Positions 31,749-33,440 of a DNA stretch of 64,000 nt are shown here, one piece after another (the stretch's first letter is position 1; the number at the start of each line of letters is the position of its first letter). Made by a program: the position numbers and the translations under genes. The notes below the pieces were generated by a model. The model was given only the letters and a program-made list of their open reading frames with translations, was not told where the DNA came from and searched no databases. Source of the DNA: Escherichia phage SholemSchwarzbard; the sequence record PP925840.1; one strand, written 5' to 3'.

Positions 31749-32204
31749 TTAAAAGAGGCTGTTCATTATTCGGTAAAGTGAAGGACCCATCACATATTGC
31801 CACTGAGTACGAGGAATAAGAGCAAAAGCGTCCATTTCTGGAATCATAACACCATCTTTATTTTCAAAATAAGACTCGCAATGGCAATTTCTAAACATCT
31901 CATGCTCTACTGGAATCGTATAATAAAATAACTGTAGGTCTTTATTACTAGAATATTTAAATACACCTAGGTCTTCTAGAAGGTCTGGATTATAATTGTT
32001 AAAACCAGTCTCTTCTGAGCATTCTCTTCGTGCTGCATCTAATGCGCTTAAATCAGAATTTTCTACACGCCCCTTTGGAATATCCCAGCGATGTGCCATC
32101 ATTCCAGGCTTACGAGAACCAGTAACTCGTCCCATAAATAAATCTTTATCTTCTGTCATAAAGATAATACCAGCTGATAATGTTTTCATTTTAATTTCCT
32201 GCAT
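31749..32204 (-). CDS. nudE: Nudix hydrolase NudE
   Basis: 151 aa; Nudix box GRVENSDLSALDAARRECSEETGF. Confidence 0.88.
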   Translation of the reverse strand: MQEIKMKTLSAGIIFMTEDKDLFMGRVTGSRKPGMMAHRWDIPKGRVENSDLSALDAARRECSEETGFNNYNPDLLEDLGVFKYSSNKDLQLFYYTIPVEHEMFRNCHCESYFENKDGVMIPEMDAFALIPRTQWQYVMGPSLYRIMNSLF

Positions 32205-32674
32205 TCAGTGATAAAATTATTTAAATTTTGAGTATATTTCTTTTCATCAAAAATCTTTTGCTGCCTACGTAACCGCCATGGCATTTCAATGAACACGCAC
32301 CATATTCCTGATAGTACTGCTGCTGTAAAAATATTAACAAGTATAATTAAAAGAATCCAATCTTCCGTTCTGCCTACTGGACTTTCTCCAAAGAAACAAA
32401 ATACAAATGATGTCACAGGAAAACTAATAATATACCACAGAATAACCTTCTTATCTGTGAACCAATCAGCGTTCGTTAACTTAGCACGACCATTTTGAAT
32501 ACACACGAATTTATCATCTGTTACAGTAGATGGCTTAGCTGCTTGATATCCCATTCTAAACTCCCTAATTAATCGTTTCTTTGTATCTTCAGAACAGCCA
32601 CTCCAATCAACTCTATCAACTGAAATGCCATCGTCCCCATCATCTAAATCATACCAGCGAGTTTTTAAAATCAT
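32186..32674 (-). CDS. membrane protein (e.2 position)
   Basis: 162 aa with two hydrophobic helices; C-terminal tail NNFITECRKLK. Confidence 0.5.
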   Translation of the reverse strand: MILKTRWYDLDDGDDGISVDRVDWSGCSEDTKKRLIREFRMGYQAAKPSTVTDDKFVCIQNGRAKLTNADWFTDKKVILWYIISFPVTSFVFCFFGESPVGRTEDWILLIILVNIFTAAVLSGIWCVFIEMPWRLRRQQKIFDEKKYTQNLNNFITECRKLK

Positions 32675-33045
32675 TTAATTTTCCTACAATCACTCACAAA
32701 CTCTTTCATTGATTCATTTTCAATATAAGATATGTAATTATTATATTCTTTTAATTGTATTTTGTAATCCTTTTTTCTTTGCCAATTTATTTTAAAATTA
32801 TCATAATGAAAATATAAAATAATACCAAAGAATGAAAATAATGAAATTACTATAGTATAATGAAGTTCGCTCCAAACTTCTATTATATCTACTATACCGC
32901 TGACATTACTGCGGATGTTTAAAATAAAACAGTCAATTAACAATCCAATAAGACTACCCGCAAGAGCTGCAGCCAACGCCACAGCAAAAATTAAAAATGA
33001 CTCAGAAAAAGAATATTTGACTTTATTTAGTTTTGGCTTTTGCAT
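32671..33045 (-). CDS. membrane protein (e.3 position)
   Basis: 124 aa with two hydrophobic helices; C-terminal tail KEFVSDCRKIK. Confidence 0.5.
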   Translation of the reverse strand: MQKPKLNKVKYSFSESFLIFAVALAAALAGSLIGLLIDCFILNIRSNVSGIVDIIEVWSELHYTIVISLFSFFGIILYFHYDNFKINWQRKKDYKIQLKEYNNYISYIENESMKEFVSDCRKIK

Positions 33046-33440
33046 CGTGATTCCTTAACAAATTTCATAATTTCATTAAATTCATACATATCTAGTTTAA
33101 GCTGGTGTTCCTTTTTAATCTTTTTACACTGAGCTTTCCATTCACGTACGCGTTTACGATAATGTCTTCCTTGATACCAATATCCTACCCAATTTACAGG
33201 TACCAATAAAAATGGAACTACAAATGGAAGAATTAATACGAACAAAAATATTACGCCAGATTCAATATCAGTCATAAAGTCTATAACCATTCCAACAATC
33301 AATAGAATTACAAATGATATAGCTGTCACAGGACCTATTAATATATCAGTAGGAATTAGCTGACGCTTTAGTTCATACTTCACAGGTTCACTTGGAAGGT
33401 ATAGTGATGGCTTTGACATATTCTCTACATTCCTTAACAA
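33027..33440 (-). CDS. membrane protein (e.4 position)
   Basis: 137 aa with two hydrophobic helices; C-terminal tail MKFVKESRCKSQN. Confidence 0.5.
   Translation of the reverse strand: MLRNVENMSKPSLYLPSEPVKYELKRQLIPTDILIGPVTAISFVILLIVGMVIDFMTDIESGVIFLFVLILPFVVPFLLVPVNWVGYWYQGRHYRKRVREWKAQCKKIKKEHQLKLDMYEFNEIMKFVKESRCKSQN

What the first reader, a model, noticed from the sequence alone, without database searches (positions are those of the whole stretch)
32186..33440. Tandem triplet of small membrane proteins sharing a C-terminal CRK tail
Three consecutive ORFs (162, 124 and 137 aa) each have two hydrophobic helices followed by a basic cytoplasmic tail ending in related sequences: NNFITECRKLK, KEFVSDCRKIK and MKFVKESRCKSQN. 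This suggests a duplicated family of membrane proteins with a conserved cytoplasmic interaction tail; possible roles include superinfection exclusion, holin/antiholin-like control or transporter targeting.
Basis: seen in the sequence. Interest (0 to 1): 0.5.

Follow-up and report, generated by a model that had tools for sequence, protein, structure and literature searches.

The report
T4 e.2–e.5 genes share tail
These are phage T4's catalogued but uncharacterised accessory genes e.2, e.3 and e.4, small two-helix inner-membrane proteins whose shared C-terminal "F-I/V-x-E-C-R-K" tail is real, also sits on the soluble neighbour e.5 and on genes after e.6 in distant T4-like phages, and here also encodes the next gene's ribosome-binding site and a recombination joint; their role is unknown and they are dispensable in the laboratory.

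Summary
The window is a Tequatrovirus (97% identical to Shigella phage KRT47). The ORFs are T4 e.2 (162 aa), e.3 (124 aa) and e.4 (130 aa from ATG 33419, not 137). Each has two strongly hydrophobic segments, a short acidic loop and a basic C-terminal region. The strict motif [FW][IV]x[DE]C[RK] occurs only three times in a whole T4-type genome, in the tails of e.5, e.3 and e.2. e.4 has a relaxed terminal copy plus an internal W-x3-C.

The tail is not a membrane-family feature: soluble e.5 carries it, as do soluble proteins downstream of e.6 in Aeromonas, RB43-type and Pectobacterium phages.

Codon variation, and cases with no RBS overlap, show selection on the peptide. In T-even phages the same bases also hold the next gene's Shine-Dalgarno and ATG. 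These repeated junctions are recombination joints: e.4 is exactly absent in Dhakavirus, and an e.4::e.2 chimera exists.

Function is unknown, and two published T4 screens find the genes non-essential. Known genes, with a modest new motif-level insight.

The parts
32186..32674 (-). e.2 (old name msp7), 162 aa: a roughly 76-aa soluble N-terminal domain, two hydrophobic helices (77-95, 107-125) and a basic tail ending NNFITECRKLK. It is intact here but truncated at 102 aa in reference T4.
   Evidence: (phrog_2203, E 5e-78)
32671..33045 (-). e.3 (msp6), 124 aa: two-helix hairpin (19-37, 61-79) with a 45-aa basic tail ending KEFVSDCRKIK.
   Evidence: (phrog_2330, E 2e-61)
33027..33419 (-). e.4 (msp5), 130 aa from ATG 33419: hairpin (28-46, 55-73), with TM2 continuing as one long helix to the C-terminus. 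Terminal motif KFVKESRCKSQN.
   Evidence: (phrog_2604, E 7e-70)
33114..33140 (-). Internal motif copy in e.4, W94-K-A-Q-C98-K-K-I-K. W94 and C98 are invariant across four genera.
33388..33993 (-). e.5 (msp4), 201 aa, soluble (no hydrophobic segment). It carries the same motif, EKFVKECREYV, 17 residues before its stop. Its last 32 nt overlap the start of e.4.
   Evidence: (phrog_2607)
31749..32189 (-). nudE (e.1, msp8), a Nudix hydrolase and the last gene of the coupled chain. Its SD-supported ATG overlaps the e.2 stop (ATGA).
32186..32215 (-). e.2 tail codons TTT ATC ACT GAA TGC AGG AAA TTA AAA TGA. AGGAAA is the SD of nudE and ATGA is the stop/start overlap.
32671..32700 (-). e.3 tail codons TTT GTG AGT GAT TGT AGG AAA ATT AAA TGA. 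AGGAAA is the SD of e.2 and ATGA is the stop/start overlap.
33050..33065 (-). First copy of the exact 16-nt repeat (minus strand AAATTTGTTAAGGAAT, encoding K-F-V-K-E and holding the SD AAGGA), at the e.4 tail / e.3 start junction.
33429..33444 (-). Second copy of the same 16-nt repeat, at the e.5 tail / e.4 start junction. It lies 379 nt from the first copy, which is one e.4 gene unit.
34014..34029 (-). GC-rich UUCG-type hairpin between e.6 and e.5. It marks the upstream edge of the gap-free e.5-to-nudE run, and L13089 annotates no promoter between it and nudE.

Best explanation
These are the T4 genes e.2, e.3 and e.4, part of a gap-free, translationally coupled run e.5>e.4>e.3>e.2>nudE downstream of the widely conserved gene e.6. 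The old T4 record annotates only early-type promoters for this gene run. Each protein is predicted to be an N-in/C-in two-helix inner-membrane hairpin whose second helix continues into a long basic cytoplasmic helix. That helix ends in the motif hydrophobic-x-x-[F/W]-[I/V]-x-[E/D]-C-[R/K]. e.3 and e.4 are diverged tandem paralogs. e.2 is a soluble N-domain fused to a more distant copy of the same 2-TM-plus-tail module. The motif is not a membrane-family signature. It marks whatever proteins are encoded just after e.6 across Straboviridae, whether soluble or membrane-bound. It is kept by selection on the peptide. Most likely (inferred) it is a helix-helix docking surface through which these proteins bind each other or one shared partner at the cytoplasmic face of the membrane. 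In the T-even group the same nucleotides also carry the Shine-Dalgarno sequence and start codon of the next gene. The repeated tail/RBS junctions therefore both couple translation (inferred from sequence) and act as in-register recombination joints through which whole genes are lost, gained or fused (shown by comparison). The biological role is accessory and unknown. Shown here: gene identity, hydropathy, paralogy of e.3 and e.4, motif specificity and conservation, the SD/ATG overlap, and the recombination products. Inferred: topology, the docking function and actual translational coupling.
For: Identity: the region is 97% identical to phage KRT47, which annotates 'similar to T4 e.2/e.3/e.4, predicted membrane protein', with matching T4 annotation and PHROG hits of E 1e-61 to 1e-78. 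Architecture: hydropathy and charge; AlphaFold2. Paralogy: e.3 vs e.4, probability 91%; Karamvirus PG7 2-TM protein vs the e.4 profile, probability 77%, full length; PG7 124-aa protein vs the e.2 family, profile positions 67-166, E 5e-4. Motif specificity. Peptide-level selection has several lines of support. Tail residues are among the few invariant columns at 24-36% overall identity. Arg is encoded by AGG, AGA, CGA or CGT and Cys by TGT or TGC. In Gaprivervirus e.5 the motif lies upstream of the SD and does not overlap it. In Aeromonas phage Aes012 the next annotated gene starts 80 nt after the motif-bearing gene's stop. ZPAH1 has three consecutive soluble proteins that all end in the motif, and RB43, EBPL and POP12 carry it 31-38 residues from the C-terminus. 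Between genera, e.5-position proteins align only over the tail. Dual coding: AGGAAA or AAGGA plus ATG/ATGA sit inside the tail codons. Recombination joints: an exact 16-nt repeat is spaced by one e.4 unit. Dhakavirus dhabil lacks e.4 exactly between the two homologous junction cassettes of Gaprivervirus. Natural chimeras and deletion derivatives exist: P0143 (e.4::e.2), P0195 and P0198. Accessory status: non-essential in HIDEN-SEQ (bioRxiv 10.1101/2025.11.20.689424, supplement) and 'Not Fit' in CRISPRi-ART (PMC11879866, supplement).
Against: There is no direct evidence of any protein-protein contact. The tail's hydrophobic moment is only modestly above shuffles (z about 0-2). The e.4 model has moderate confidence and the e.2 model is poor. 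The motif was defined post hoc. e.4's terminal copy lacks the Cys. e.2's relation to e.3 and e.4 beyond the tail rests on weak hits. Topology is only predicted. Laboratory T4 carries a truncated e.2 that lacks TM2 and the tail, and it grows normally, so at least that copy is dispensable. Dual coding may inflate the tail's apparent conservation within the T-even group.
Confidence: 0.5

Rival explanations
1. The shared tail is only a by-product of a preferred ribosome-binding cassette. The upstream reading frame happens to translate U-rich sequence plus SD plus spacer plus ATGA as F-I/V-K-E...R-K-x-K*, and the peptide itself has no function.
For: In the window every tail contains the next gene's SD and start codon. 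In many orthologs K-E is AAGGAA or AAGGAG, which is the SD. Other ATGA junctions in the window also end in ...RK..K* (for example LRKSLK* at 11136).
Against: About 48 other tightly coupled junctions in the window lack the motif, and it is absent from the rest of the T4 genome. The motif's register relative to the downstream ATG varies from about 4 to 40 nt. Arg and Cys codons vary synonymously. The motif persists where there is no SD overlap: Gaprivervirus e.5, Aes012 (80-nt gap before the next gene), and RB43, EBPL and POP12, where it lies 31-38 residues from the stop.
Confidence: 0.1
2. The tail similarity is a historical relic of tandem duplication with offset boundaries, refreshed by gene conversion between junctions. 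It persists because of dual-coding constraint and has no function of its own.
For: There is an exact 16-nt repeat at two successive junctions, followed by similar N-termini (MSKPSL and MQKPKL), spaced by one gene unit. e.3 and e.4 are paralogs. Junction-to-junction recombination is documented. ZPAH1 has tandem e.5-like paralogs.
Against: The motif is conserved at amino-acid level across subfamilies (Tevenvirinae, Emmerichvirinae, Tulanevirus, Pseudotevenvirus) while the rest of each protein has diverged beyond BLASTP detection. It is also conserved where no downstream gene overlaps it. Each e.4-type protein keeps exactly one [FW]-x3-C copy, either internal or terminal.
Confidence: 0.2
3. e.2, e.3 and e.4 are holin or antiholin-like lysis regulators that act with the adjacent endolysin gene e.
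For: The predicted N-in/C-in two-TM hairpin with a charged cytoplasmic tail resembles class II holin topology (comparison from general knowledge). The genes lie within 1 kb of e.
Against: There are no holin hits in Pfam, PHROGs or NCBIfam. The old T4 record annotates only sigma-70-type early promoters upstream of the run. The genes are non-essential, whereas e is essential, in the same screens. By established T4 genetics, lysis and lysis inhibition are accounted for by t, rI, rIII, e and the spanins. The same tail occurs on soluble proteins. In Mosigvirus and Gaprivervirus the block is not next to e.
Confidence: 0.05
4. They are host-specific accessory effectors at the inner membrane, for example superinfection exclusion, counter-defence or inhibition of a host membrane protein. 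The tail would be the part that engages the target. This is a statement about biological role and is compatible with the best explanation.
For: They are dispensable on laboratory E. coli. There is rapid turnover in a variable region, including gene loss, truncation and chimeras. The taxonomic range is narrow (7 representative clusters for e.4; e.2 only in Tequatrovirus). PHROGs files the e.2 family under 'moron, auxiliary metabolic gene and host takeover'.
Against: No phenotype is known. There is no similarity to Imm, Sp or any PADLOC or anti-defence family. A tail shared with soluble proteins argues for a phage-internal partner at least as much as for a host target.
Confidence: 0.25

Closest known systems
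T4 e.2, e.3, e.4 (msp7, msp6, msp5): PHROG 2203, 2330, 2604; Pfam tags PF26896 and PF26873
   Same: They are direct orthologs: the region is 94-97% identical in DNA to many Tequatroviruses, with the same order e.6-e.5-e.4-e.3-e.2-nudE-e and the same 'predicted membrane protein' annotation.
   Different: e.2 is the intact 162-aa form, whereas the T4 reference has a 102-aa truncation. No function is known for any of them.
PeSL cassettes (promoter-early stem-loop) that mediate modular shuffling in T4-type hyperplastic regions (PMC2839356, PMC4122927)
   Same: Short conserved sequences at gene boundaries in variable regions of T4-like genomes serve as recombination joints for gene gain and loss. 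Here that is seen as e.4 present or absent exactly between two homologous junctions.
   Different: PeSLs are intergenic promoter-plus-hairpin modules. Here there is no intergenic space: the joint is the coding tail of one gene plus the SD and ATG of the next, and it is also under peptide-level selection.
Class II (two-TM, N-in/C-in) holins such as S21
   Same: Small size, two hydrophobic helices and a charged cytoplasmic C-terminus (comparison from general knowledge).
   Different: No sequence or profile similarity. Only early-type promoters are annotated for the run, not late ones. The tails are much longer (37-57 residues after TM2), the genes are non-essential, and the tail is shared with soluble proteins.
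T4 Imm (small inner-membrane superinfection-immunity protein)
   Same: A small, early, non-essential inner-membrane protein of T4.
   Different: The T4 stretch that contains imm shows no copy of the motif in the whole-genome scan. No direct sequence comparison with Imm was run. No exclusion phenotype is known for e.2-e.4.

Membership tests
T4 e.3 family (phrog_2330) | Full-length profile match | tested here: met
   E 2.3e-61 over residues 1-122 of a 122-position profile. Forty-five homolog clusters were found, some named e.3.
T4 e.4 family (phrog_2604 / PF26873) | Full-length profile match | tested here: met
   E 7.4e-70. All homologs carry the precomputed tag PF26873. The local Pfam copy lacks this model.
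T4 e.2 family (phrog_2203 / PF26896) | Full-length profile match | tested here: met
   E 5.1e-78 over residues 1-160. Homologs carry PF26896.
One paralogous family containing e.2, e.3 and e.4 | Profile-profile similarity that extends beyond the tail for every pair | tested here: inconclusive
   e.3 vs e.4: probability 91% over 55 columns. e.2 vs e.3: tail only, probability 55%. e.2 vs e.4: none. Indirect links come via PG7 proteins and phrog_944. A natural e.4::e.2 chimera is joined in register within TM1.
Holins (class II) | Two TM helices with N-in/C-in topology | tested here: inconclusive
   Hydropathy and the positive-inside charge pattern agree with this topology, but it is prediction only.
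Holins (class II) | Homology to a holin family | tested here: not met
   No holin hit in Pfam, PHROGs or NCBIfam. The BFVD fold search returns only uncharacterised T4-like proteins.
Holins (class II) | Required for lysis and expressed late | tested here: not met
   The genes are non-essential in two T4 screens in which e is essential. Only early-type promoters are annotated upstream. Expression timing itself was not measured here.
Superinfection exclusion proteins (Imm/Sp type) | Exclusion phenotype or homology to Imm or Sp | not testable with these tools
   The motif is absent from the T4 stretches that contain imm and sp. No direct sequence comparison was run, and the phenotype needs an experiment.
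PeSL shuffling cassettes | Intergenic early promoter plus stem-loop at the recombination joint | tested here: not met
   The junctions e.5/e.4, e.4/e.3, e.3/e.2 and e.2/nudE overlap by 4-32 nt and leave no intergenic space. The only hairpin is the one after e.6.
Sulfurtransferase (label that NCBI gives some e.3 and e.4 homologs) | Rhodanese or TusA-type domain | tested here: not met
   No Pfam or NCBIfam hit at E up to 10. The proteins are helical hairpins. The label appears and is unsupported.
Known anti-phage defence components (PADLOC) | Profile match | tested here: not met
   No hits at E up to 1.

The most novel reading that the evidence does not exclude
The F-I/V-x-E-C-R/K helix is a portable C-terminal docking tag. 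It marks an otherwise unrelated, fast-turning-over set of phage proteins, both soluble and membrane-bound, for one conserved partner. The obvious candidate is e.6, which is always encoded immediately upstream from coliphages to Aeromonas phages. If so, e.6 would be a hub and the tail-bearing genes would be swappable clients whose cassettes are exchanged at the very junctions that encode the tag.
Probability: 0.25. Interest if true: 0.6.

Novelty: already known. Interest (0 to 1): 0.3.

Why it matters
The genes themselves are long-catalogued T4 ORFs of unknown function, so the locus is not new. What this analysis adds is a testable handle on about half a dozen T4 orphan genes. They share one short peptide motif that is conserved across Straboviridae, which points to a common partner or complex. 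In the T-even group the motif-coding DNA also serves as the translational-coupling signal and as a recombination joint. That gives a concrete, coding-sequence counterpart to the PeSL model of modular shuffling in T4-like genomes. If the tail proves to be a docking tag, one pull-down could assign a context to e.2-e.6 at once.

Tried and rejected
- Family scans: Pfam, NCBIfam and PADLOC gave nothing for e.2-e.5.
- Solved structures: PDB sequence searches of e.5, e.2 and e.6 gave nothing usable.
- Fold search: the BFVD search with the e.4 model found only uncharacterised homologs. I did not fold-search the e.2 model because its pLDDT is 50.
- Deep profile search: e.4 against 1.84 billion representatives gave only 7 clusters, so there are no distant annotated relatives.
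- Literature: searches found no functional study, only genome-wide screens listing the genes as non-essential.
- 'Pure RBS by-product': rejected as the sole cause, for the reasons given under the first rival.
- 'Sulfurtransferase': the NCBI label is rejected as unsupported.
- Frameshift site: a -1 frameshift slippery site at A-AAA-TTT-G does not fit the X-XXY-YYZ rule (inspection).
- Amphipathicity: the hydrophobic moment of the tail is only weakly above shuffles, so I do not use it as strong evidence.
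Full report
**What is at the locus**

The window is a T4-like (Tequatrovirus) genome. The stretch 31000-34800 is 97.4% identical to Shigella phage KRT47 and 94-96% identical to hundreds of other T-even phages. The ORF at 31218-31712 is T4 lysozyme e, with nudE next to it. The three ORFs of the finding are T4 e.2 (32186-32674), e.3 (32671-33045) and e.4 (33027-33440). KRT47 annotates them as 'similar to T4 e.2/e.3/e.4; predicted membrane protein'. They hit PHROGs 2203, 2330 and 2604 at E 1e-61 to 1e-78. An old T4 GenBank record (L13089) calls the run msp1-msp8, with msp4-7 corresponding to e.5-e.2. It annotates early-type promoters only upstream of msp1-3 and a hairpin after msp3, which is e.6. 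The same hairpin is at 34014-34029 in the window. e.4 almost certainly starts at ATG 33419 (MSKPSL..., 130 aa), as in all orthologs, not at the TTG at 33440.

**Checking the observation**

Each protein has exactly two strongly hydrophobic 19-residue segments (Kyte-Doolittle means 1.9-3.0). A short acidic loop separates them, and the termini are basic, which by the positive-inside rule predicts an N-in/C-in hairpin. The AlphaFold2 model of e.4 (14-sequence alignment, pLDDT 74) has helix 24-48, a five-residue loop and a single helix 54-129, so TM2 runs on as a cytoplasmic helix of about 55 residues to the C-terminus. The e.2 model is poor (pLDDT 50) but shows the same pattern, H70-95 and H103-161. 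e.2 also has a 76-residue soluble N-terminal region.

The tails read as reported. The strict pattern [FW][IV]x[DE]C[RK] occurs three times in all six-frame ORFs of the window and nowhere in the remaining roughly 105 kb of T4. The expectation is 0.26 hits. All three observed hits lie within 17 residues of the stops of adjacent genes, and the Poisson probability of at least three hits within the last 20 residues of ORFs is about 2e-5. The pattern was defined after the fact, but it is replicated in other genera, as described below.

**Are the three proteins paralogs?**

Pairwise BLASTP is weak. I built profiles that include diverged orthologs from Mosigvirus, Gaprivervirus and Jiaodavirus.
- e.3 vs e.4: hhalign probability 91%, E 1e-6 over 55 columns, covering TM2 plus the whole tail. 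They also share the N-terminus M-x-K-P-x-L.
- e.2 vs e.3: only the 14-residue tail aligns (probability 55%).
- e.2 vs e.4: nothing.

Indirect links exist. A Karamvirus PG7 2-TM protein aligns full-length to the e.4 profile (probability 77%). Another PG7 2-TM protein hits the 2-TM-plus-tail half of the e.2 PHROG (E 5e-4). A natural protein from phage UFV05 (P0143) is e.4 residues 1-31 fused in register, inside TM1, to the e.2 body and tail.

So e.3 and e.4 are paralogs. e.2 is best read as a soluble domain fused to a more distant copy of the same module, though this is not proven. Both families are narrow: e.4 has 7 representative clusters among 1.84 billion proteins, and e.2 is confined to Tequatrovirus.

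**The tail is also the next gene's translation start signal**

On the coding strand the four junctions are:
- e.5>e.4: AAATTTGTTAAGGAATGTAGAGAATATG
- e.4>e.3: AAATTTGTTAAGGAATCACGATG
- e.3>e.2: TTTGTGAGTGATTGTAGGAAAATTAAATGA
- e.2>nudE: TTTATCACTGAATGCAGGAAATTAAAATGA

In e.3 and e.2, 'R-K' is AGG-AAA, the Shine-Dalgarno of the next gene, and the final 'K*' is AAATGA, an ATGA stop/start overlap. In e.4 and e.5, 'K-E' is AAG-GAA, which is again the SD. The genes overlap by 32, 19, 4 and 4 nt. The run e.5>nudE therefore has no intergenic space, and by sequence it is translationally coupled.

**The RBS overlap does not explain the motif**

- About 48 other tightly coupled junctions in the window have unrelated tails.
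- The motif's distance to the downstream ATG varies.
- Codons vary while the amino acids stay: Arg is AGG, AGA, CGA or CGT, and Cys is TGT or TGC.
- In Gaprivervirus e.5 the motif (GCT GAA TGT CGT GAA) lies upstream of the SD AAAGGAG and does not overlap it.
- In the cross-genus alignments (24-36% identity) the tail residues are among the few invariant columns: F116 and C120 in e.3; W94, C98, F120, K122, E123 and R125 in e.4.
- Between genera, e.5-position proteins align by BLASTP only over the tail, although PHROG profiles show they are remote e.5 homologs.

**The motif is not a membrane-protein feature**

I used the widely conserved e.6 (1,106 phage records) as an anchor.
- Klebsiella phage KMI13 has the motif on e.5, e.4, two further hydrophobic proteins and a soluble 102-aa protein next to the lysozyme gene.
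- Karamvirus PG7 has it on one soluble and two 2-TM proteins.
- Aeromonas phage Aes012 has it at the end of an unrelated 288-aa soluble protein. The next annotated gene starts 80 nt beyond that protein's stop, so no RBS overlap is possible.
- Aeromonas phage ZPAH1 (subfamily Emmerichvirinae) has three consecutive soluble proteins right after e.6 ending DRFIKKCRGMVK*, ENFVRKCRDIMK... and ESFIKECRKIVS*. Two of them are tandem paralogs.
- RB43, EBPL and Pectobacterium POP12 carry EKFIHSCKKNV or ESFIHQCKVQV 31-38 residues from the end of the e.5-position protein.

The motif therefore marks the genes that follow e.6 across Straboviridae. Hydrophobic residues at -3, 0, +1, +4 and +7 relative to the aromatic residue form a heptad-like stripe. 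The hydrophobic moment is only modestly above shuffles.

**The repeated junctions are recombination joints**

In the window an exact 16-nt repeat (33050-33065 and 33429-33444) sits at the e.4/e.3 and e.5/e.4 junctions, 379 nt apart, which is one e.4 unit. In Gaprivervirus the same two junctions share the cassette TAA[A/G]GAGGTTC[A/G][A/T]AATG. In the sister genus Dhakavirus (phage dhabil) e.4 is missing exactly between them. Its e.5 tail follows the e.5/e.4 junction up to ...CAAAATG and continues as the e.4/e.3 junction, giving the hybrid tail ...ECREYAKEVQNGTA. P0143, P0195 and P0198 are further fusion and deletion products within the block. Reference T4 has a truncated e.2 whose TM2 and tail survive as untranslated DNA.

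**Function**

No library, structure or paper gives a function. Two genome-wide T4 screens list e.2-e.8 as non-essential or 'Not Fit' on laboratory E. coli. My best-supported reading has three parts.
- A translationally coupled cassette encodes soluble e.5 and small inner-membrane hairpins.
- These proteins share a C-terminal helix motif kept by selection on the peptide. Most likely it is a docking surface for each other or for one common partner at the cytoplasmic face of the membrane. This step is inferred.
- The motif-coding DNA doubles as coupling signal and recombination joint. This step is shown by comparison.

A holin or antiholin role is unlikely: only early-type promoters are annotated, the genes are non-essential, there is no homology to holins, and the motif occurs on soluble proteins. 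Superinfection exclusion or counter-defence remains open.

**Verdict**

The genes are already known T4 ORFs. The motif's distribution and its triple use (peptide, RBS, recombination joint) are a modest new insight. Interest 0.3.

Noticed in passing
L002 3153-3461 (T4 e.2) compared with window 32186-32674: Reference T4 e.2 is a 102-aa truncation. The DNA for TM2 and the FITECRKLK tail is still present downstream but untranslated. Most Tequatroviruses, including this window, keep the intact 162-aa gene, and 122-aa forms also occur.
   Followed up: partly
P0143 (phage vB_EcoM-UFV05), P0195, P0198: These are natural recombinants within the block. P0143 is e.4(1-31)::e.2(88-162), joined inside TM1. 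P0195 is an e.4 lacking both TM helices. P0198 is a Mosigvirus fragment joining e.3 sequence to the e.4 tail. Some of these could be assembly artefacts.
   Followed up: partly
L003 3731-4525; L005 3691-4743; L011 5022-6266; L012 4802-5328: In Mosig-, Gapriver-, Dhaka- and Karamvirus the genes downstream of e.3 form another tandem array, this time of small acidic soluble proteins. All end in W-[VL/FY]-[ST]-S-S-x-x-C* (for example GAWVSSSALC*, GGWVASSHTC*, WYPSSC*). This is a second family in the same region that shares a C-terminal tail.
   Followed up: no
window 36328-36351 and 35773-35796 (minus strand): Two nearly identical GC-rich terminator-like hairpins (AGCCCCGACC-loop-GGTTGGGGCT followed by TTTTGGTAT) lie 555 nt apart upstream of e.8/e.7. 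They may be repeated intergenic cassettes of the PeSL kind.
   Followed up: no
homologs of window 32671-33045 and 33027-33419 in public databases: NCBI names some e.3 and e.4 homologs 'sulfurtransferase', and single records use 'DNA primase' or 'terminase small subunit'. No Pfam or NCBIfam model supports any of these names, so they look like propagated mis-annotation.
   Followed up: partly
window 34035-34628 (e.6): e.6 is by far the most conserved gene of the neighbourhood: 1,106 phage records, reaching Aeromonas and RB43-type phages at 31-59% identity. It always sits immediately upstream of the motif-bearing genes. Several records label it 'host specificity protein' with no visible basis, and it has no PDB or Pfam relative.
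   Followed up: partly
window 30322-30795 and 30812-31129 (minus strand): The two internal-head-protein genes (IpII and IpIII in KRT47) both begin MKTYQEFI.E, a shared N-terminal leader. From general knowledge this is the T4 capsid-targeting sequence. It is another case of adjacent genes sharing a terminal peptide.
   Followed up: no
window 32189-32204: T4 RefSeq starts nudE at an ATG formed by the E-C codons of the e.2 tail (GAATGC; MQEIKMKTL...). That ATG has no Shine-Dalgarno sequence. The ATG 15 nt downstream, which overlaps the e.2 stop, has AGGAAA 7 nt upstream and is the start used in the KRT47 annotation.
   Followed up: partly
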